Source of the DNA: an uncultured Mycoplasma sp.
Lineage (GTDB): Bacteria; Bacillota_I; Bacilli_A; RF39; UBA660
NCBI GenBank assembly: GCA_964491445.1
Contig: CAZBFY010000001.1
Location: 1 to 31,467 of the forward strand
Reading direction: 5' to 3'
DNA: 31,467 bases
The translations under genes were made by a program, and so were the position numbers. Within the stretch, counting starts at the first letter, position 1. Each line of letters opens with the position of its first letter. Of the stretch, positions 2,123-25,380 are shown one piece after another. Below the pieces are notes generated by a model. It was not told where the DNA came from, ran no database searches, and saw nothing but the letters and a program-made list of their open reading frames with translations.

Positions 2123-3851
2123 AGCAAATGAATTGAAAAGGGAGTATATTGAGTTTTTTAAGACTAAGGGGCATACTGAAATAGAGAGTGCTTCTTTAAT
2201 ACCTGAGGATAATTCTTCTGTATTATTTACAATAGCAGGTATGCAACCTTTAATACCTTATCTTTTGGGTAAGCATCATTCTAGTGGGTCTAGGCTTGTT
2301 GATAGTCAAAAGTGTATAAGAACAAAAGATATAGATGAAATAGGGGATAATTCTCATTTAACTTTTTTTGAGATGTTAGGTAATTGGAGTCTTGGGGATT
2401 ATTTTAAAGAAGAGTCTATTGAGTATAGTTATGAGTTTTTGACTAAGCATTTAATGATACCTAATTCTAAGCTTGCAGTAACTGTATTTAAGGGTGATGA
2501 TAAGGTTGCTAAAGATGTAGTAAGTGCTAGTAAATGGGAAGAGCTTGGTATTTTAAAAGATAATATATTTTATTTAGGAAAAGAAGATAATTGGTGGTGT
2601 GCTGGAGAAGAGGGTCCATGTGGTCCTGATACTGAAATATTTTATATATTTGATAAAGAAAAGTGTTCTGATAATTGTTCTCCTGCTTGTAGTTGTGGGC
2701 GTTATATGGAGATTTGGAATAATGTTTTTATGGAATATAATAAAGTAAAAGATGATTTGATTCCTCTTAGTCAAAAGAATGTAGATACTGGTATGGGTCT
2801 TGAGAGAATTATTACTGTTTCACAAAGAAAAGATAGTGTTTATGATACTGATGTTTTTGAAAATACTATGAAAAAGATTAATGAACTTTCTAAAGTAGAT
2901 AATCTTGAGAGTAAAAGAATAGTAGCAGATCATTTAAGGGCAGCTTCGATGATAATAAATGATGGTGGTTTGCCTAGTAATGTTAATGAGGGTTATATTT
3001 TAAGGAGATTAATAAGAAGAAGTATTAGGCATATGAGAAAGTTAAAGATAGATACTAGTTTAATTAATGATATAGTATTGTCAGTACTTCTTGATTTGAA
3101 TGAACAAATTGGTAATTTAGATGATAAAAAAATAATTTCTGTCATAAATGAAGAAGCAAATAAATTTTTAAAGACTATTGCAAAAGGTTTTAAAAGAATA
3201 ATGGAAGAGATAGAGAAACGTGGTAGTTTAATACCAGGGGAAATAGCTTTTAGGCTTTATGATACTTATGGGTTTCCTCCAGAACTTACTGATGAGATAG
3301 CTAGGGAACATGGTTTAAGTGTTGATATGGATGGTTTTAATAAATTATTTAAAGAACATCAAGAAAAGAGTAGACAGGGTGCGGAGATTAAGTTTAAAGG
3401 TGGTTTAAAGAAAAATGGTGAGATGGAAACTAAGTATCATACTGCTACTCATTTATTAAATAGGGCTTTAAAGGATGTTTTAGGATCTCATGTTCATCAA
3501 AAGGGATCAAATATAACAGAAGAAAGATTAAGATTTGATTTTTCTCATCCTGAGAAGGTTTCAAAAGAAGATTTACAAAAAGTAGAAGATATAGTAAACG
3601 AAAAAATACAAGAAGATTTAAAAGTAACATATGAGGTTATGAGTAAAGAAGATGCTATAAAAACAGGAGCAGAAGCTATGTTTATAGATAGGTATGATGA
3701 TGAAGTTAAAGTATATTCTATAGGAAATTATTCTAAAGAGATATGTGGTGGACCACATGTTAATAGTACTAAGAGTTTAGGACATTTTAAGATTAAAAAA
3801 GAAGAGTCTTCATCAAGTGGTGTAAGAAGAATAAAAGCAATACTTGAATAA
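2109..3851 (+). CDS. alaS: Alanine--tRNA ligase, short form lacking C-Ala domain
   Basis: Motifs SVLFTIAGMQP, HLTFFEMLGNWS, DTGMGLER, ADHLR, LYDTYGFP, editing-domain HTATHLL and CGGPH; ends at GVRRIKAILE. Start ATG 2109 after GGTGA. Confidence 0.97.
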   Translation: MKEFKANELKREYIEFFKTKGHTEIESASLIPEDNSSVLFTIAGMQPLIPYLLGKHHSSGSRLVDSQKCIRTKDIDEIGDNSHLTFFEMLGNWSLGDYFKEESIEYSYEFLTKHLMIPNSKLAVTVFKGDDKVAKDVVSASKWEELGILKDNIFYLGKEDNWWCAGEEGPCGPDTEIFYIFDKEKCSDNCSPACSCGRYMEIWNNVFMEYNKVKDDLIPLSQKNVDTGMGLERIITVSQRKDSVYDTDVFENTMKKINELSKVDNLESKRIVADHLRAASMIINDGGLPSNVNEGYILRRLIRRSIRHMRKLKIDTSLINDIVLSVLLDLNEQIGNLDDKKIISVINEEANKFLKTIAKGFKRIMEEIEKRGSLIPGEIAFRLYDTYGFPPELTDEIAREHGLSVDMDGFNKLFKEHQEKSRQGAEIKFKGGLKKNGEMETKYHTATHLLNRALKDVLGSHVHQKGSNITEERLRFDFSHPEKVSKEDLQKVEDIVNEKIQEDLKVTYEVMSKEDAIKTGAEAMFIDRYDDEVKVYSIGNYSKEICGGPHVNSTKSLGHFKIKKEESSSSGVRRIKAILE

Positions 3852-6560: not shown

Positions 6561-7322
6561 TTATTTTTTTATGTCGATGTTACTTTTTTCAATAGCTCTT
6601 AAAACTTCAATAGGAAGAGCAAATACAATAGTATTAGACTGATCTGATGAAATATCATTAATAGTAGATAATGTTCTTAAATGAAGTGCACCATTTGCAT
6701 TTGCCATAGTTTCAGCAGCCTTTGCTAGGTTTTTAGAAGCTTCAACTTCTCCGATAGATTTAGTAATAACAGCTTGTTTTTCTCTTTCAGCCTCTGCCAC
6801 TTTTGCTATAACTCTTTTCATTTCAACTGGTAGAGAAACATCTTTTAATTCAACGTTTTCTACTTTTATTCCCCATGGGTCAGTAGCTTTATCAATGATA
6901 TTACATATTTCTAAAGATAGTTTATCTCTTTCGCTTAATAGTTCATCTAGTGATACTGAACCTACAACATTTCTCATGGTAGTTTGAGCAAGTTGAGATA
7001 CTGCATAAAAGAAATTTTCAACTTCTAAAACACTTTTTGATGCATCAAATACTTTATAATATATAACAGCATTAATTTTTACAGAAACATTATCTTTTGT
7101 AATAGCTTCTTGTTCAGGAACATCTACTGCTTTAGTTCTAATGTCAACTTTCTTATAAGACTGAAATACAGGAATAACAATTCTCCATCCAGGTTCCATT
7201 ATTTTAGTGAATTTACCTAGGCTAAATTTAATACCTCTTTCATATTGATTAATTTGTTTAATTGACGCTAGTAAAACTAGTATTACTACTACTACAACAA
7301 GTATAAATAAGCTCATATACAT
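6561..7322 (-). CDS. SPFH/band 7 stomatin-like (slipin) protein
   Basis: N-terminal hydrophobic anchor; QYERG, ITKDNVSV, AQTTMRNVVG, TDPWGIKVENVELKD, AEAEREK motifs; AAGGAGG RBS. Confidence 0.95.
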   Translation of the reverse strand: MYMSLFILVVVVVILVLLASIKQINQYERGIKFSLGKFTKIMEPGWRIVIPVFQSYKKVDIRTKAVDVPEQEAITKDNVSVKINAVIYYKVFDASKSVLEVENFFYAVSQLAQTTMRNVVGSVSLDELLSERDKLSLEICNIIDKATDPWGIKVENVELKDVSLPVEMKRVIAKVAEAEREKQAVITKSIGEVEASKNLAKAAETMANANGALHLRTLSTINDISSDQSNTIVFALPIEVLRAIEKSNIDIKK

Positions 7323-19624: not shown

Positions 19625-19732
19625 ATGAAAGATAAAATATGGAATTTATTTAAAATAACTGGAGATATAAAATACTATATGTTATATAAAGAAATGGAGA
19701 ATGTTGAAGAAAGTGCAAATCTTAAAGATTAA
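19625..19732 (+). CDS. yqzL: YqzL-family small protein (35 aa), absent from ORF track
   Basis: MKDKIWNLFKITGDIKYYMLYKEMENVEESANLKD*; W-x-x-F-x-x-TG-x-I-x-x-Y-x-x-Y/FKE pattern; GGTGA RBS; era-yqzL-recO order as in Bacillus. Confidence 0.85.
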   Translation: MKDKIWNLFKITGDIKYYMLYKEMENVEESANLKD

Positions 19733-20412
19733 AGGTATAGTAATAAATGATACTAATTATAGTGAATCAAGTAAAATATTAAATATCAAAGGGTTGTAGG
19801 GGTTATAAATCAAAATTAAGAAGTGTATCATGTAAGATGACATATGGTTATTTTTACATAAATTATAAAGAAAATACTTTATCAACTTTAGTAGAAGCTG
19901 ATGTAATAAATGAGTTTAAAAGTATTAAAACAGATTTAAAGAAAATAGGATATGCTGTGTACTTATTAGATTTAGCAAAACAAGTAGAAAAACAAAATAC
20001 AAATGATAGAGAAGAAATATTTAGTATTTTAGAAGAATCACTTTTAAAGATAGAAAATAGTTTTGAACCTAGTATAATAACTAATATAGTAGAGTTAAAA
20101 TATTTATCATTTTTAGGAGTTGAACCAGTACTAGATAGATGTAGTATATGTAATAATAAACAAGATATTATAACTATAAATAGTGATGCTGGAGGATATA
20201 TTTGTAAGAATTGTTATACAAATGAGTATATAACTGATGAGAAGACATTAAAGTTATTAAGAATGTTTGATTTTGTAGATATATCAAAAATAAAAGAATT
20301 AAATATTTTGGATAAGAATAAAAAAGAAATAAATAAGTTTTTAGAAGATTATTATAGTAAATATACTGGTTTATATTTAAAATCAAAAGATTTTTTAAGT
20401 CAAATTAAGTAA
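19713..20412 (+). pseudogene. recO: DNA repair protein RecO with N-terminal deletion/frameshift
   Basis: GTG 19713 frame: MQILKIKGIVINDTNYSESSKILNI then stop at 19797. A second frame from 19786 reads SKGCRGYKSKLRSVSCKMTYG... through the zinc finger CSIC/ICKNC to 20412. Confidence 0.85.
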
Positions 20413-20499: not shown

Positions 20500-21057
20500 A
20501 TGAAGAGAAATATTATATCATTAAGTGGAGATTTAGCATCTGGAAAAGGGACTGTTTCTAAACTTTTAATGGATAAACTTTCATTTGGTATTTATAGAAA
20601 TGGAGAATATTTTAGAAAACTTGCAAAGGAATCAGGGATGAGTCTTGAAGACTTTGGTAAGTATGTAGAGAAACATCCAGAAATAGACGAGAAAATAGAA
20701 AATAGTGCTAGGGAATATGCTTGTTGTCATGATAATTTTGTTATAGATGCAAGACTTGGTTTTTATGCTGTGCCTGAATCATTTAAAGTATATTTAAAAG
20801 TGGATATAGATGAGGCTGCAAGAAGAGCATTTTTAGATGATAAAAGAAAAGAACTTGAAAACTTTTCTACTGTGGAAGAACATAAACAAGCTTTGATAGA
20901 AAGATTTAATTGTGAAAATGAAAGATATTTTAAACTTTATAAGATTAGAAAAGAAGATTTAAGTAATTATGATTTAGTAGTAGATACTACAAACTTAACA
21001 CCAGATGAAGTTTCAAATATTATTATAAAAGAGTATAATATTTGGAAAAATAATTAA
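20500..21057 (+). CDS. cmk: Cytidylate kinase, archaeal-type (CMP/dCMP kinase)
   Basis: ISLSGDLASGKGTV, GEYFRKLA, EIDEKIE, VIDARLG, FKVYL, YDLVVDTT pattern of the short archaeal-type family. Confidence 0.75.
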   Translation: MKRNIISLSGDLASGKGTVSKLLMDKLSFGIYRNGEYFRKLAKESGMSLEDFGKYVEKHPEIDEKIENSAREYACCHDNFVIDARLGFYAVPESFKVYLKVDIDEAARRAFLDDKRKELENFSTVEEHKQALIERFNCENERYFKLYKIRKEDLSNYDLVVDTTNLTPDEVSNIIIKEYNIWKNN

Positions 21058-21111
21058 TTGCAACTGAAAGTATACAAAAAGAAACTAAAATTTGGTAGTG
21101 TTGCATACTTT
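21045..21111 (+). repeat. 67-bp direct repeat, left copy (includes last codons and stop of cmk)
   Basis: gaaaataattaattgcaactgaaagtatacaaaaagaaactaaaatttggtagtgttgcatacttt-type sequence; 65/67 identical to 22668-22734. Confidence 0.95.
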
Positions 21112-21156
21112 TCTTTTGATAAATACTGTTTTATTTATTAAAAACAGATAAATATT

Positions 21157-21208
21157 TAAACTAAATGACCCACTTGGTATTGACTTAGTGAGTCTTTTAG
21201 TTTAAAAT
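21157..21208 (+). promoter_or_regulatory. AbiE promoter with overlapping 18-bp inverted-repeat operator
   Basis: TTGACT (21180-21185)-17-TAAAAT (21203-21208); arms taaactaaatgacccact (21157-21174) and agtgagtcttttagttta (21187-21204), 16/18 complementary. Confidence 0.8.
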
Positions 21209-21225
21209 TGTATCAGGTGATTTAA

Positions 21226-21765
21226 ATGTTATATTTTCATAAAGAGTTAAAAGAAAAATTAAAATCTGATTATCAAATACAAAAGGCAGTAAGGGATAAA
21301 AAGTATTTTAAAGTATATGATGGATTATATTCAGATAAGTCTGATATTGATTATATTGAAATAATTGCTAAAAAATTTCCAAACTTTGTTTTATATGGAG
21401 AATCTGCCTATTACTATCATAATCTTACTGATTTTATCCCAAGTAAGATTGTTTTAGCGACAACTAAGAATAGTAAAATTAGATTAAAGTTTGTAAAGCA
21501 AGTTAGATTAACTGATGAATTATTTAATATAGGAATAATGAAGACTCAAATAAATGGTATAACAATTAATATATATGATAAAGAGAGAATGCTTATTGAA
21601 CTTGTTAGAAATAAAAATAGAATAGGATATGATATGTATAAAGAAATAGTTATAAATTATAGGAAAATTGTGGATATTCTTGATATGGAAAAAATAGAAA
21701 ACTATTTGTCATATTTTCCTTATGCCGATAAACTTTTTGAAATAATGCAAGATGAGGTGTTTTAA
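21226..21765 (+). CDS. AbiEi-family type IV antitoxin / transcriptional regulator
   Basis: YFKVYDGLY, ESAYYYHNLTD.IP, IYDKERMLIEL motifs; ATGA-type coupling to the toxin. Confidence 0.85.
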   Translation: MLYFHKELKEKLKSDYQIQKAVRDKKYFKVYDGLYSDKSDIDYIEIIAKKFPNFVLYGESAYYYHNLTDFIPSKIVLATTKNSKIRLKFVKQVRLTDELFNIGIMKTQINGITINIYDKERMLIELVRNKNRIGYDMYKEIVINYRKIVDILDMEKIENYLSYFPYADKLFEIMQDEVF

Positions 21766-22586
21766 TGAATTTGAATAATCTTGTTAATAATTATTTATTA
21801 TTAGGATATGGGTTAGTTGATGCACAATCTAAAGTATGTCAAGATTTGATTTTGTATACAATAGGTAAAAGTAAATATGCATATAATATCACTATTAAGG
21901 GTGGGGTAGTAATGCATAATATAAGTAAAAGTACAAGACGTGCTACGAGAGATTTAGATTTAGATTTTATCAAATATTCTCTTGATAATAGTTCAATATT
22001 AAAATTTATAAATGAACTAAATGAGAGTGATCAGCAATTAACAATAGAAATAATTGGTAATATTGAAAGCTTGCATCATCAACTATATGATGGTAAACGT
22101 GTTAATGTATTAATTACTGATTATTATGGTAATTCTTTAAAAACTAAATTAGATATTGGAGTGCATAAATATTTTGAATTAAAACAAGATGAGTATATAT
22201 TTGATTTAGATATTATAAATGGAAGTGTATCACTACTCATAAATTCACCTGAGCAAATAGTATGTGAAAAATTGAGATCTTTATTAAAGTTTGGTATTCG
22301 TTCTACTAGGTATAAAGATGTTTTTGATTTTTATTATTTAATAAGCAATAATTTTTTAAATAAAGATAGATTATTTAAATATATTGACTTATTAATTATT
22401 AAAGATAAAAATATAAATCAAGATACAATCAATGATGTAATATTGAGATTAAAAACCATTTTTAATAATAAAAGATATATTGAAAAACTAGATAATGCAA
22501 GAAGTAATTGGATTAATGTTCCAGTAAGAGAGGTAATTGATGTTGTTATTTCTTTCTTTAAATCTTTAGAGACTATTAAGTTATAA
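21765..22586 (+). CDS. AbiEii-family nucleotidyltransferase toxin
   Basis: IKGG...RATRDLD (GG-x-DxD NTase motif), EKL and RYKDVFD motifs. Confidence 0.9.
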   Translation: MNLNNLVNNYLLLGYGLVDAQSKVCQDLILYTIGKSKYAYNITIKGGVVMHNISKSTRRATRDLDLDFIKYSLDNSSILKFINELNESDQQLTIEIIGNIESLHHQLYDGKRVNVLITDYYGNSLKTKLDIGVHKYFELKQDEYIFDLDIINGSVSLLINSPEQIVCEKLRSLLKFGIRSTRYKDVFDFYYLISNNFLNKDRLFKYIDLLIIKDKNINQDTINDVILRLKTIFNNKRYIEKLDNARSNWINVPVREVIDVVISFFKSLETIKL

Positions 22587-22667
22587 TAAATAGTTATATG
22601 TTTTAAAACTGTTGTAAAGAAGTATGTTGTTTTGTAAAAAATAGAGAAGAATGTCTTTAAACAAAGT

Positions 22668-22734
22668 GAAAAATAGTTAATTGCAACTGAAAGTATACAA
22701 AAAGAAACTAAAATTTGGTAGTGTTACATACTTT
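22668..22734 (+). repeat. 67-bp direct repeat, right copy
   Basis: Matches 21045-21111 except at two positions. Confidence 0.95.
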
Positions 22735-22767
22735 ATTTATAATAAAATATCGGTGGAGGTTGATAAA

Positions 22768-24096
22768 ATGAAATTTTGTGATAAGTTGCCAAAGCTTAGA
22801 AAGGATAATAATTTATCTCAAGAAAAACTTGCAGATTTACTAGGAGTATCAAGACAAGCAGTATCAAAGTGGGAGTCTGGTTCTTCTTATCCAGATATGG
22901 AAAAACTAAATAAATTATGTAAAATACTAAATTGTACTTTAGAAGACTTATTAGATGATGGTAGTATTAGTAAAACAAATAAAGTTAGTTTTAATACTTA
23001 TATAAATGATTTTTTAAAATTAATAACTAATATATATAATATGTTCTTTGCCATGGGTTTAAAAGAAAAAATAAAGTGTTTATTAGAAATGCTTTTTATT
23101 ATATTAGTTCTTTGGGTATTATCTTTTATAGTATTTACTTTTTGTAATAGTTTTATATTTAATTTATTTTTAAATATACCTAAACTAGGTGTATATATAG
23201 ATTATATATTAGAAAATATAACTATGATAATATTATTTATAATAGATTTAATAATATTTATTCATTTATTTAAAATTAGATATTTAGATTATTATATAAC
23301 AGTAGAAGATCAAAATATAAAAGAAAAACAAATAGAAAAAGAAAAAATAAATAAAGAACGTATTATAATAAGAGATCCAAAACATTCTAGTTTTAGTATA
23401 TTTAATATGTTAGCAAGTATAATAGTAGTAGTTTTAAAAATATTGTTTGTAATACTTTTATTATTTATATCATTTTTCTTTATATGTTTATTAGTTTTTT
23501 TAATACTTGCAATATATCATATAAAATATAGTATATTATTTATTTTTGTAACTAGTTTAATACTAGGAGTATTACTAATAAATTATGATTTAATATATCT
23601 TGCTTATAACTTTATATTTTCTAGGAAACAAAATATAAAGAGAGTATTTATTATATTTATAAGTGGTTTATTTGTATCGGGTGTTTCTTTGGGATTAATA
23701 CTTTTAGTGTATTTATCTTTTGATAAAGAAAATGAAATGCCTAGTAGTTTTAAAAATGATGATATAGTTACTGTAAAGATGGAAGATAATCTTATTATAC
23801 ATAATGATGATGTGGTATATAAGATAGATAATTCTATAAAGGATATAGAAATTAAGAATAGTTTTAAGGGTGCTGTAGTAGAAGAAGATTATATGTATTC
23901 ATCATTAAAAGAGTATAAAGTTATATATTTTAAAGATGATAGTAATGTGTTATTAGAATTATTATTTGAGGATATAAAGAATAGTAAAACAAGAGATTAT
24001 AGTAAAGTATTAGATGATTCTATAGTAATTAGTGTTTCTTTGGATAATTATAATAAATTATGTAATAATTATACAGAGTATATAAATGATAATTAG
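22768..24096 (+). CDS. XRE-family HTH regulator fused to multi-TM domain
   Basis: LRKDNNLSQEKLADLLGVSRQAVSKWESG..YPD HTH followed by several TM segments; start ATG 22768 after GGAGG. Confidence 0.85.
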   Translation: MKFCDKLPKLRKDNNLSQEKLADLLGVSRQAVSKWESGSSYPDMEKLNKLCKILNCTLEDLLDDGSISKTNKVSFNTYINDFLKLITNIYNMFFAMGLKEKIKCLLEMLFIILVLWVLSFIVFTFCNSFIFNLFLNIPKLGVYIDYILENITMIILFIIDLIIFIHLFKIRYLDYYITVEDQNIKEKQIEKEKINKERIIIRDPKHSSFSIFNMLASIIVVVLKILFVILLLFISFFFICLLVFLILAIYHIKYSILFIFVTSLILGVLLINYDLIYLAYNFIFSRKQNIKRVFIIFISGLFVSGVSLGLILLVYLSFDKENEMPSSFKNDDIVTVKMEDNLIIHNDDVVYKIDNSIKDIEIKNSFKGAVVEEDYMYSSLKEYKVIYFKDDSNVLLELLFEDIKNSKTRDYSKVLDDSIVISVSLDNYNKLCNNYTEYINDN

Positions 24097-24218
24097 AAAT
24101 AGTAATTAGTGCTGTTTCTTTTTTTGTTAGTAAGTGTTATAATGGAGAAAAGATAAAAGTAGAAAAAATACTAACCTTTTTGGAAAAAATAACACTATAT
24201 TAGTGAAAGGTGATTAAT

Positions 24219-24692
24219 GTGGAAGAAGTTTACAATGAATATTATTATAAGATATATAATTATTTACTTAAGAAGACAAATAATAAAGAGGATGCAGAAG
24301 ATTTAACTAATAGTGTTTTTCTAACTATATTTGAGTATTTTAATAGAAATATAAAAATAGAGAAAATAGAGAATTTAATATGGAAAATTGCTTATAATTT
24401 GTGGTGCACCAAAGCAAAGGAGTATATAAATGAGAAGAATAACACTGGAGTTTTATTAGAAGATTTTGTAGGGTATACAGATAATGTGATAGATAAAATT
24501 ATATATAGAGAGATAGTAAATGATTTGGATAAGTTTAACTTGACAGAAAAAGAGATGAAATCTTTTAGGTTGTTCTACATAGAGGACCTTTCAATAAAAG
24601 ATATTAGCACTAGACTTAGTACTAAAGAGGGTAATATTAAGTATTATTTATATAGTGCAAGAAATAAGATAAAGGAGAGATATAATGAATAA
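24219..24692 (+). CDS. ECF-type RNA polymerase sigma factor
   Basis: Region 2 (YYKIYNYL...DAEDLTNSVF...KIAYN) and region 4 (LTEKEM..F.LFY.EDLSIKDIS......GNIKYYLYSARNKIK); GTG 24219 after GGTGA-N5. Confidence 0.9.
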   Translation: MEEVYNEYYYKIYNYLLKKTNNKEDAEDLTNSVFLTIFEYFNRNIKIEKIENLIWKIAYNLWCTKAKEYINEKNNTGVLLEDFVGYTDNVIDKIIYREIVNDLDKFNLTEKEMKSFRLFYIEDLSIKDISTRLSTKEGNIKYYLYSARNKIKERYNE

Positions 24693-25380
24693 TTTGAATT
24701 TGGATAAGTATTTGAATATTGTGAATAAGGAGAAAGTAAAAAGAGGGCTTGATACATATATACCTTTATATCCTATGTTAAGGGTTCAAGATGGTATGTT
24801 ATATGTTAGTGTACTTTTAACAAGAGAAGAAGATAATGTATGGGATAAAGAAGGTAATGTTAAGGCTGAATATTGGGTTTTAATAGATATTAATAATGAT
24901 GAAATAGTGTCATTTAATAAGACTATAGAAAAAGATTTTGTAGTAGGTAGTCTTATTTCTAAAAATAGGGAAGAAAAGGAGAAAGAGCTTTCTTTATATA
25001 CAGTTAAGAAGACTTTAGAGTATAAAGATTATTTAATTAAGGATATAAAAGAAGAAGAGTTACCACTTCAAAAGAAGTTATCTGGTATTTTAGATAAGAA
25101 TATAGAAATAGATGGAGATATAGTAAATATTAATGAGTATTTATTATCAAATTTAGAGGAGGAAATAAAAGAAAAAGTAAATGCTTTAGTAAATGTATTA
25201 GTAGAGTCTAAGTTTGGAGCATATACTTTCTATTATGATAAGTTATTTTCTATGATTATTGATAGTTATAGTAAGGACAAAGTAATTGATAATGAAAAGA
25301 TTAAATTATGTATAAAAATAATGAATTATTATTATGATGGAGTAATTGGTATAGATAATTTATTTAATATAGAAGAGTAA
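24685..25380 (+). CDS. Hypothetical soluble protein coupled to the ECF sigma gene
   Basis: 231-aa ORF overlapping the sigma stop; no TM helix or motif recognised; hairpin agaaga/tcttct + T tract after it. Confidence 0.7.
   Translation: MNNLNLDKYLNIVNKEKVKRGLDTYIPLYPMLRVQDGMLYVSVLLTREEDNVWDKEGNVKAEYWVLIDINNDEIVSFNKTIEKDFVVGSLISKNREEKEKELSLYTVKKTLEYKDYLIKDIKEEELPLQKKLSGILDKNIEIDGDIVNINEYLLSNLEEEIKEKVNALVNVLVESKFGAYTFYYDKLFSMIIDSYSKDKVIDNEKIKLCIKIMNYYYDGVIGIDNLFNIEE

What the first reader, a model, noticed from the sequence alone, without database searches (positions are those of the whole stretch)
21045..22734. Integrase-less AbiE defence cassette bounded by a 67-bp direct repeat duplicating the cmk 3' end
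The repeat (65/67 identical) contains the last codons and stop of cmk plus a hairpin-forming tail (aaagtatacaa/ttgcatacttt; also tgcaac/gttgca). Recombination between copies would excise a 1623-bp circle carrying only promoter, operator, AbiEi and AbiEii and restore the empty site. This looks like attL/attR of a minimal cassette mobilised in trans, or the addictive remnant of a collapsed integrative element using a protein-coding gene end as attB.
Basis: partly seen in the sequence, partly recalled or inferred. Interest (0 to 1): 0.72.

Follow-up and report, generated by a model that had tools for sequence, protein, structure and literature searches.

The report
AbiE cassette with long target duplication
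A two-gene AbiE toxin-antitoxin/phage-defence cassette sits between two housekeeping-type genes of an uncultured tiny-genome gut bacterium, flanked by a 67-base duplicate of the original site; this insertion style was known for restriction-modification genes, and here it recurs for non-nuclease defence cassettes.

Summary
A 67-nt direct repeat (65/67 identical, weaker likeness to 79 nt) brackets a 1.55-kb insert of promoter/operator, abiEi and abiEii, 1623 nt start to start. No such match is expected by chance, and the genome holds only these two copies.

Nine congeneric species have cmk, one repeat copy, then the HTH gene, so they are empty sites. Only 13 nt of the repeat are cmk; the rest is the conserved cmk-HTH spacer, including the -35 of the HTH promoter.

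The att-site/integrase reading is not supported:
- Close homologues of the cassette (81-85% DNA identity against 65-73% for era-recO-cmk) sit at other loci in four other genera. They are bracketed by unrelated, host-derived repeats of 33-160 nt.
- In this genome a type II RM pair, an AbiL pair and a second AbiE pair have the same architecture with different repeats.
- No integrase-linked or alternatively filled copy of the repeat was found.

This is "insertion with long target duplication", described for RM systems (Nobusato 2000; Furuta 2010), with AbiE as cargo. How the duplication forms is unknown. Excision was not detected, but the data available could not have detected it.

The parts
20500..21057 (+). 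Cytidylate-kinase-like gene (cmk). Its last 10 coding nt and the TAA stop lie inside repeat copy 1.
   Evidence: Pfam Cytidylate_kin2 1.2e-11 and Cytidylate_kin 4.3e-11. Orthologues at 72-81% DNA identity in 15 congeners.
21045..21111 (+). Direct repeat copy 1 (weaker likeness to 21123). It is the native cmk end plus the cmk-HTH spacer, and carries the derived G at 21103.
   Evidence: The alignment with nine empty sites shows A at the position of 21103 in all congeners.
21112..21154 (+). Junction segment private to this insertion. It is not shared with homologous cassettes, and contains the small palindrome CTGTTTT...AAAACAG.
   Evidence: Alignment of four cassettes: homology starts at about 21155. 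No informative match elsewhere.
21147..21214 (+). AbiE promoter (TTGACT-17-TAAAAT, 21180-21208) embedded in a conserved palindrome (arms 21147-21174 and 21187-21214). This is the presumed AbiEi operator and the 5' edge of the conserved mobile unit.
   Evidence: Inverted repeat I4. Promoter scan. Near-invariant across cassettes from four genera.
21226..21765 (+). abiEi, the antitoxin/transcriptional repressor (179 aa).
   Evidence: PADLOC AbiEi PDLC02238, E = 3.7e-57, full length. No Pfam hit.
21765..22586 (+). abiEii, the nucleotidyltransferase toxin (273 aa). Its start overlaps the abiEi stop, and the KGG...RDLDLD motif is present.
   Evidence: Pfam PF08843 AbiEii, 4.7e-18, above the curated cut-off. 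Motif read from the sequence.
22587..22667 (+). 3' junction segment private to this insertion.
   Evidence: Homology with the other cassettes ends at the abiEii stop. No match elsewhere.
22668..22734 (+). Direct repeat copy 2 (weaker likeness to 22746). It is continuous with the native HTH-gene upstream region. The G at 22676 turns the copied cmk end into TAG.
22715..22743 (+). Promoter-like site of the downstream HTH gene (TTGGTA-17-TATAAT). The -35 lies inside the repeat and the -10 at its right edge. The same position in copy 1 reads TTTGAT.
   Evidence: Promoter scan. Conserved in nine congeners.
22768..24096 (+). Downstream HTH_3 (XRE-type) gene of 442 aa. In congeners it is the native right-hand neighbour of cmk.
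   Evidence: Pfam HTH_3 4.9e-17. It lies adjacent to cmk in nine congeners.

Best explanation
A minimal AbiE module, running from its palindromic operator/promoter through abiEi to the abiEii stop (about 21155-22590), was acquired horizontally from another genus of the same family of tiny-genome gut Bacilli. It was inserted into the cmk-HTH intergenic spacer with a long duplication of the target (at least 67 nt, perhaps 79).

This is the 'insertion with long target duplication' type, not integrase att sites. Because the duplicated stretch spans the cmk stop and the -35/upstream part of the HTH promoter, both neighbours stay intact (read from the sequence).

Inferred, not shown:
- The duplication is made at insertion by a process that depends on neither cargo nor sequence. 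A widely staggered break filled in around incoming DNA, or a template switch, would do it.
- The repeats then allow RecA-type precise excision.
- The addictive toxin-antitoxin nature of AbiE, like that of RM, selects against cells that lose the insert. That would explain why mostly addiction or defence cargo is seen in this configuration.
For: 1. Repeat and anatomy are confirmed, and the genome has only two copies.
2. Nine congeneric species have cmk, a single repeat copy and then the HTH gene, so the repeat is the native conserved spacer. Eleven further public contigs carry a single copy of the core.
3. The cargo is AbiEi plus AbiEii, and the insert holds no recombinase.
4. The cassette is 81-85% identical over about 1.45 kb to cassettes in three other genera, against 65-73% for era-recO-cmk in those same genomes.
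5. Four homologous cassettes in other genera are bracketed by unrelated repeats of 160, 122, 45 and 33 nt. For the 160- and 122-nt pairs the repeat is the single-copy 3' end of a host gene in the relatives found; the 45- and 33-nt repeats overlap the upstream gene's 3' end in their own genome.
6. In this genome, kb-spaced high-identity repeats also bracket a type II RM pair (148 nt), an AbiL pair (48 nt), an AbiL-like pair (40 nt) and a second AbiE pair (122 nt). Congeners with both flanks in the fetched locus (at least eight) have the empty RM site.
7. The architecture, the repeat lengths and the repeats spanning stop codons match the class that Furuta et al. 2010 describe for RM systems (PMC2853133).
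8. Independent contigs from four runs in two studies hold the cassette at 100% identity, at the same depth as its flanks.
Against: - How a 33-160 nt duplication arises is not known, here or in the literature.
- No excision product or conspecific empty site was seen. The k=31 contigs cannot phase the two mismatches, which lie 50 nt apart, so integrated versus circle-plus-empty is not formally separated.
- Most homologous cassettes elsewhere lack detectable flanking repeats: they were found in 4 of 19 AbiE, 1 of 24 AbiL and 0 of 16 RM loci.
- For the second AbiE cassette (contig C76) the repeat is not found in relatives, so it may belong to the insert.
- The addiction/survivorship argument is inference only.
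Confidence: 0.7

Rival explanations
1. Campbell-type integration by homologous recombination. A circular or terminally redundant copy of the cassette already carried a diverged copy of the cmk-HTH spacer, having been excised from the same locus of a related strain. It recombined with the resident spacer through RecA, giving two hybrid repeat copies.
For: - RecA and ComEC are present.
- The two mismatches fit a single crossover: the outer halves carry the chromosomal or ancestral A and the inner halves carry G.
- Private segments lie between the repeat and the conserved cassette.
- Cargo GC content equals flank GC content.
Against: - It explains spread at one locus but not how the first duplication arose.
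- The same cassette clade sits at five or more unrelated loci, each with its own host-derived repeat, so duplications must be made anew.
- No other genome with a filled cmk site was found.
- The mismatch pattern is equally expected from relaxed selection on the non-functional halves.
Confidence: 0.15
2. The repeats are attL/attR of a site-specific recombinase acting in trans (a CIME-like, integrase-less element), or the remnant of an integrative element whose integrase module was deleted.
For: - Direct repeats that include a gene's 3' end are typical of tyrosine-integrase elements.
- The genome encodes three Xer-like tyrosine recombinases of about 297 aa and one large serine recombinase elsewhere.
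- CIMEs are a known class (PMC5704250, found).
Against: - The repeat is the native spacer, single-copy in every other genome and contig examined and never next to an integrase.
- Homologous cassettes and other cassettes in this genome use unrelated repeats of very different length, with no shared end motif.
- Homology between cassettes stops at the operator and at the abiEii stop, leaving no room for a decayed integrase.
Confidence: 0.1
3. Assembly artefact. A free circular AbiE molecule carrying a copy of the spacer was threaded into an empty chromosomal site through the shared 49-nt identical core.
For: With k=31, attL plus attR and attB plus attP share all their k-mers, because the two mismatches are 50 nt apart. 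The two contigs that bridge cmk to cargo come from runs with gaps at the other junction.
Against: - Cargo depth equals flank depth in four runs from two studies.
- The MAG assembler resolved the integrated form.
- The same architecture occurs in other assemblies with repeats that carry many phasing mismatches, for example 160 nt with 12 mismatches in G399.
- The cassette has no replication gene.
Confidence: 0.04

Closest known systems
Insertion with long target duplication of restriction-modification gene complexes (Nobusato et al. 2000, Gene 259:99; Furuta, Abe & Kobayashi 2010, PMC2853133)
   Same: - A small gene unit with no mobility gene.
- Direct repeats over 30 bp that align with a single copy at an empty site in a related genome.
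- Repeat length and sequence vary from site to site.
- Repeats often span a neighbouring gene's stop or start.
- The genome also has an RM pair of exactly this type (148 nt).
   Different: The cargo is an AbiE type IV toxin-antitoxin/abortive-infection pair, and elsewhere in the genome AbiL, rather than RM. Furuta et al. proposed a property common to RM systems, such as double-strand breakage. AbiEii is a nucleotidyltransferase, so that explanation does not transfer. In the library searched, the term appears only with RM cargo.
AbiE (AbiEi/AbiEii) type IV toxin-antitoxin / abortive infection systems
   Same: - An AbiEi-family repressor gene overlapping a downstream PF08843 nucleotidyltransferase gene.
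- Inverted repeats over the promoter.
- Presence on horizontally moving DNA.
   Different: Function is untested here. AbiEi lacks the Pfam AbiEi_4 hit and is recognised only by PADLOC profiles. The mobile unit is exactly operator to stop codon.
CIMEs (cis-mobilizable elements) and other integrase-less, att-flanked islands (review PMC5704250)
   Same: Cargo bounded by direct repeats, with no recombinase of its own.
   Different: CIME repeats are att sites of a specific ICE/IME integrase and recur with that integrase. Here the repeats are plain local sequence, unrelated between sites, and no integrase-linked copy was found.
pdif (XerC/D) modules of Acinetobacter plasmids, and integron cassettes
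   Same: Small cassettes, often toxin-antitoxin pairs, moved without a recombinase gene of their own (from my own knowledge).
   Different: Those are bounded by conserved recombination sites (28-bp dif-like sites, or attC). Here no conserved site exists and the bounding sequence is the duplicated target.
IS elements with long or variable target duplications (IS1630 of Mycoplasma fermentans, cited in PMC2853133; IS1202 family, bioRxiv 10.1101/2022.12.17.520857)
   Same: Target duplications longer than usual, sometimes at terminator-like sites.
   Different: Those reach about 19-29 bp and need a transposase and terminal inverted repeats. None is present here, and the duplications are 33-160 nt.

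Membership tests
AbiE type IV TA / Abi system | Toxin with the AbiEii (PF08843) nucleotidyltransferase domain and the Gly-Gly ... D-x-D motif. | tested here: met
   PF08843 at 4.7e-18, 66.4 bits against a cut-off of 22.5. The IKGGVV...RDLDLDF motif is read from 21896-21970.
AbiE type IV TA / Abi system | An AbiEi-family antitoxin/repressor gene immediately upstream, translationally coupled. | tested here: met
   PADLOC AbiEi PDLC02238 at 3.7e-57 over 1-179 of 179 residues. The abiEi stop overlaps the abiEii ATG at 21765. No Pfam AbiEi_4 hit.
AbiE type IV TA / Abi system | Inverted-repeat operator in the promoter for autorepression. | tested here: inconclusive
   A 28-nt palindrome flanks the -35 and is conserved in four genera. 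Binding is not testable here.
AbiE type IV TA / Abi system | Toxicity neutralised by AbiEi, and abortive infection of phage. | not testable with these tools
   Needs expression and phage assays.
Insertion with long target duplication (Furuta 2010 criteria) | The repeats align with one copy at an empty site in a related genome. | tested here: met
   Nine congeneric species.
Insertion with long target duplication (Furuta 2010 criteria) | Duplication longer than 30 bp, insert shorter than 20 kb, and no other mobile-element genes. | tested here: met
   A 67-79 nt repeat and a 1.55-kb insert holding only abiEi and abiEii.
Insertion with long target duplication (Furuta 2010 criteria) | The insert contains R and M gene homologues. 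| tested here: not met
   The cargo is AbiE. The kind of insertion is the same but the cargo class differs.
Integrase-mediated integrative element / CIME | The flanking repeats are att sites shared with an integrase-bearing element. | tested here: not met
   The repeat core is single-copy and native in 9 congeners, 7 genome contigs and 4 metagenome contigs, with no integrase context. Homologous cassettes have unrelated repeats.
Integrase-mediated integrative element / CIME | A recombinase gene, or its remnant, inside the element. | tested here: not met
   There are only two ORFs. Cassette homology ends at the operator and at the abiEii stop. The genome's recombinases lie on other contigs.

The most novel reading that the evidence does not exclude
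Tiny-genome gut Bacilli have a recombinase-free route of cassette mobility that does not depend on the cargo. Promoter-to-stop defence/addiction modules (AbiE, AbiL, RM) are inserted at gene 3' ends with 30-160 nt target duplications. They can then leave as circles by recombination between the repeats, and they persist only because losing them kills the cell. If so, 'long target duplication' would be a general host- or uptake-linked integration mechanism rather than an RM-specific one.
Probability: 0.3. Interest if true: 0.75.

Novelty: new variant of a known kind. Interest (0 to 1): 0.55.

Why it matters
Insertion with long target duplication has been an unexplained way for RM genes to move since 2000, and it was attributed to the DNA breakage that RM systems cause. 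This lineage shows the same signature on AbiE and AbiL cassettes, which are not restriction nucleases. For AbiE it recurs at five unrelated sites in five genera.

That points to a mechanism independent of the cargo, combined with selection for addictive cargo. It also provides a set of natural insertion junctions, with matching empty sites, on which a mechanism could be worked out. And it bears on how defence genes spread in reduced genomes that carry few classical mobile elements.

Tried and rejected
- **Hairpin or terminator role of the repeat.** The fold is no better than shuffles, no terminator-like site was found, and the pairing is not conserved.
- **Dispersed REP-like element.** Rejected: only two copies in the genome.
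- **Alternative cargo after cmk.** In the five congeners where cmk is not followed by the HTH gene, the neighbours are housekeeping genes (DHH phosphoesterase, rhamnose synthesis, PBP, PIG-L). These are rearrangements, not cassettes.
- **Excision or empty-site reads.** Logan contigs of four runs show no 1623-nt skip. The joints listed have 20-28 nt sides and look like noise. Contigs at k=31 cannot phase the two mismatches and drop rare variants, so this says nothing about excision.
- **Conspecific sequences.** An exact 27-mer of the repeat found nothing in the metagenome contigs. A degenerate 30-mer found only single-copy sites.
- **Shared end motifs.** None seen among six cassettes. The private junction segments gave only chance AT-rich hits.
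- **Full empty sites for the G399 and G129 insertions.** The repeat is single-copy in relatives, but the outer flank was not conserved or was too short, so these remain partial.
- **The Nobusato 2000 paper** is not held.
- **Flanking repeats around homologous cassettes elsewhere.** Found at 1 of 24 AbiL loci and 0 of 16 RM loci.
Full report
**Observation**

The window holds a direct repeat at 21045-21111 and 22668-22734. It is 65/67 identical and the copies start 1623 nt apart. Weaker likeness runs on to 21123/22746 (79 nt, 92%). Dinucleotide-preserving shuffles give no such match. The 1-Mb, 145-contig, 78%-complete assembly that contains the window has only these two copies.

The genes on the + strand are, in order:
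- era
- a recO that appears frameshifted
- a cytidylate-kinase-like gene (20500-21057)
- the insert
- an XRE-type HTH gene (22768-24096)
- a sigma-70-type gene

The insert holds two overlapping ORFs:
- ORF 21226-21765 has no Pfam hit but matches a PADLOC AbiEi profile end to end (3.7e-57).
- ORF 21765-22586 is an AbiEii nucleotidyltransferase (PF08843, 4.7e-18), and its GG...DLDLD motif is readable in the sequence.

**What the repeat is**

In nine other species of the genus, cmk is followed by one copy of this sequence and then directly by the HTH gene. The alignment shows that the repeat is a well conserved intergenic spacer.

Only its first 13 nt are cmk (10 coding nt plus the stop). The remainder runs up to a promoter-like site for the HTH gene (TTGGTA-17-TATAAT, 22715-22743), with the -35 inside the repeat and the -10 at its right edge. 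Copy 1 therefore completes cmk, and copy 2 keeps the HTH gene's upstream region. The insertion costs neither neighbour anything.

At the right-hand mismatch all nine congeners have the A of copy 2, so the G of copy 1 is derived.

The proposed hairpin is not significant (z = +0.8), no terminator-like site is present, and the pairing is not conserved.

A degenerate 30-mer of the repeat core found seven species-representative contigs and four metagenome contigs. All are labelled as uncultured gut Bacilli/'Tenericutes' MAGs where a title is given, and each has a single copy. No filled site with other cargo and no integrase-linked copy turned up. In the five congeners where cmk has a different neighbour, that neighbour is housekeeping.

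**The cassette moves, and lands with a new duplication each time**

A DNA search of 400 genomes of the family with the cargo found cassettes 81-85% identical over about 1.45 kb in three other genera. In those same genomes era-recO-cmk is only 65-73% identical, so the cassette has been exchanged between genera.

Homology begins sharply at a palindrome that embraces the AbiE promoter (TTGACT-17-TAAAAT, 21180-21208; arms 21147-21174 and 21187-21214). This palindrome is almost invariant in four genera and is presumably the AbiEi operator. Homology ends at the abiEii stop. The 43 nt and 78-81 nt between this unit and the repeats are private to the window and match nothing informative.

Of the 19 related loci fetched, four are bracketed by direct repeats:

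| Genome | Repeat length | Identity |
|---|---|---|
| G399 | 160 nt | 92.5% |
| G129 | 122 nt | 96.7% |
| G400 | 45 nt | 86.7% |
| G284 | 33 nt | 97% |

These repeats are unrelated to each other and to the window's repeat. Each includes the 3' end of the upstream co-oriented host gene. For G399 and G129 the repeated sequence is single-copy host sequence in the relatives where it was found.

**The same architecture on other cargo in this genome**

A self-comparison of the assembly found further kb-spaced, high-identity short repeats that bracket one or two genes:

| Contig | Repeat | Cargo |
|---|---|---|
| C23 | 148 nt, 97% | C5 methyltransferase plus type II restriction enzyme |
| C26 | 48 nt, 96% | AbiLi/AbiLii |
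| C11 | 40 nt, 90% | AbiLi-like ATPase plus an unknown gene |
| C76 | 122 nt, 98% | a second, distantly related AbiEi/AbiEii pair |
| C16 | 91 nt, 99% | an unknown membrane protein |

Checks on these:
- The RM insertion has clean empty sites in every congener whose fetched locus holds both flanks, at least eight.
- For C76 the flanking genes are adjacent in relatives, but the repeat itself is not found there.
- For C26 the right flank is not conserved nearby.
- No common motif is visible at the cassette ends.
- Homologous AbiL and RM cassettes in other genomes rarely show such repeats (1 of 24 and 0 of 16). The signature is recurrent but not universal, and it is unusually frequent in this genome.

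**Comparison with what is known**

This is the pattern that Kobayashi's group named 'insertion with long target duplication'. RM gene complexes with no mobility gene are flanked by direct repeats over 30 bp that correspond to one copy at an empty site. The repeat lengths vary and often span a neighbouring stop or start codon (PMC2853133).

Those authors suggested that the mechanism involves a property common to RM systems, such as double-strand breakage, and they proposed an invade-amplify-release life cycle. In the library searched, the term occurs only in connection with RM cargo.

The window's case meets their structural criteria except for the cargo. AbiEii is a nucleotidyltransferase toxin and AbiL an ATPase/RloB pair, so breakage by the cargo's own nuclease is not an available explanation here.

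**Why not att sites**

- A trans-acting integrase would need a recognisable common site. The repeats differ completely in sequence and in length (33-160 nt) between sites.
- The window's repeat is simply the native spacer.
- There is no space in the conserved unit for a decayed integrase.
- The genome does encode three Xer-like tyrosine recombinases and one large serine recombinase, but on other contigs.

A Campbell-type homologous integration of a circle that already carried the spacer would give the same product. It fits the mismatch pattern, and RecA and ComEC are present. It cannot explain the creation of new duplications at five or more different loci. I keep it as the likely way such a cassette could spread between strains at one locus, not as the origin of the duplication.

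**Mechanism: shown and inferred**

Shown:
- Horizontal acquisition of the cassette.
- Insertion in the spacer with duplication of at least 67 nt.
- Preservation of both neighbours.
- Recurrence of the signature with different cargo and at different sites.

Inferred:
- The duplication is generated at insertion by a process independent of cargo. Candidates are a widely staggered break filled in around incoming DNA, or a replication template switch out to the foreign DNA and back to a point upstream.
- The repeats permit RecA-type precise excision.
- Addiction modules are over-represented in this configuration because other cargo would be lost cleanly by recombination between the repeats, while loss of AbiE, AbiL or RM is penalised.

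Ku was not found. DprA was not found either, in an assembly that is 78% complete.

**Read evidence and its limits**

Logan contigs from four gut-metagenome runs in two studies carry the cassette at 100% identity, with cargo depth like flank depth (about 3-6x). Two contigs bridge cmk, repeat and cargo.

No joint that skips 1623 nt was seen. However, contigs drop rare variants. At k=31 the two mismatches, 50 nt apart, cannot be phased, so excision products are neither shown nor excluded. The circle-plus-empty-site artefact is unlikely, but these data do not formally exclude it.

**Verdict**

The integrase/att interpretation is not supported. The feature is a new variant of a known but mechanistically unexplained kind of gene mobility, one not previously tied to AbiE or AbiL cargo in the literature I could search. 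Interest is moderate, and it would be higher if the cargo-independent mechanism were demonstrated.

Noticed in passing
G000 contig C23: 840-987 and 3034-3181 (locus L037): A type II RM pair (C5 methyltransferase 1007-2047, restriction enzyme 2057-2890) is bracketed by a 148-nt, 97% direct repeat. The repeat duplicates the last ~130 coding nt and the stop of the upstream gene. At least eight congeners have the empty site.
   Followed up: yes
G000 contig C76: 2695-2814 and 4410-4531 (locus L041): A second, distant AbiEi/AbiEii pair (27% identical to the window's toxin) is bracketed by a 122-nt, 98% repeat. Its AbiEii is split into two ORFs (3053-3709 and 2857-3102, minus strand). The flanking genes are adjacent in relatives, but the repeat sequence is not found there.
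   Followed up: partly
G000 contigs C26 (4547-4594 / 6662-6708), C11 (10376-10415 / 12446-12485) and C16 (6550-6640 / 7590-7680): AbiLi/AbiLii, an AbiLi-like pair and an unknown 303-aa membrane protein are each bracketed by short high-identity direct repeats. The C26 repeat is a terminator hairpin plus the gene end. The C16 repeat is a whole promoter, RBS and ATG with an (AT)n run, so the inserted ORF uses the duplicated start.
   Followed up: partly
window 19671-19799 and 19783-20412: recO is read in two frames. An N-terminal OB-fold-like piece ends at 19799 and the RecO_C part runs in another frame to 20412. This is either a frameshift or a low-coverage assembly error. If real, it might affect recombination between short repeats.
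   Followed up: partly
window 22768-25380: The module of HTH gene, sigma-70-like gene and a 231-aa ORF downstream of cmk is itself variable in the genus. It is present next to cmk in nine species. It is absent in G005, where cmk is followed directly by the DHH-CBS gene, and in G008, which has one unknown 267-aa gene there.
   Followed up: partly
G000 contig C3: 21033-21839 (contig end at 22165), and C101: 2164-2754: Two more AbiEii paralogues bring the total to four in a 1-Mb genome. The C3 copy is 50% identical to the window's, and the contig breaks inside its abiEi.
   Followed up: no
G014 contig C42: 72618-73433 (locus L030): A congener's AbiEii homologue (54% identical) contains one in-frame TGA. 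It may be a pseudogene, a sequencing error or a recoded codon.
   Followed up: no
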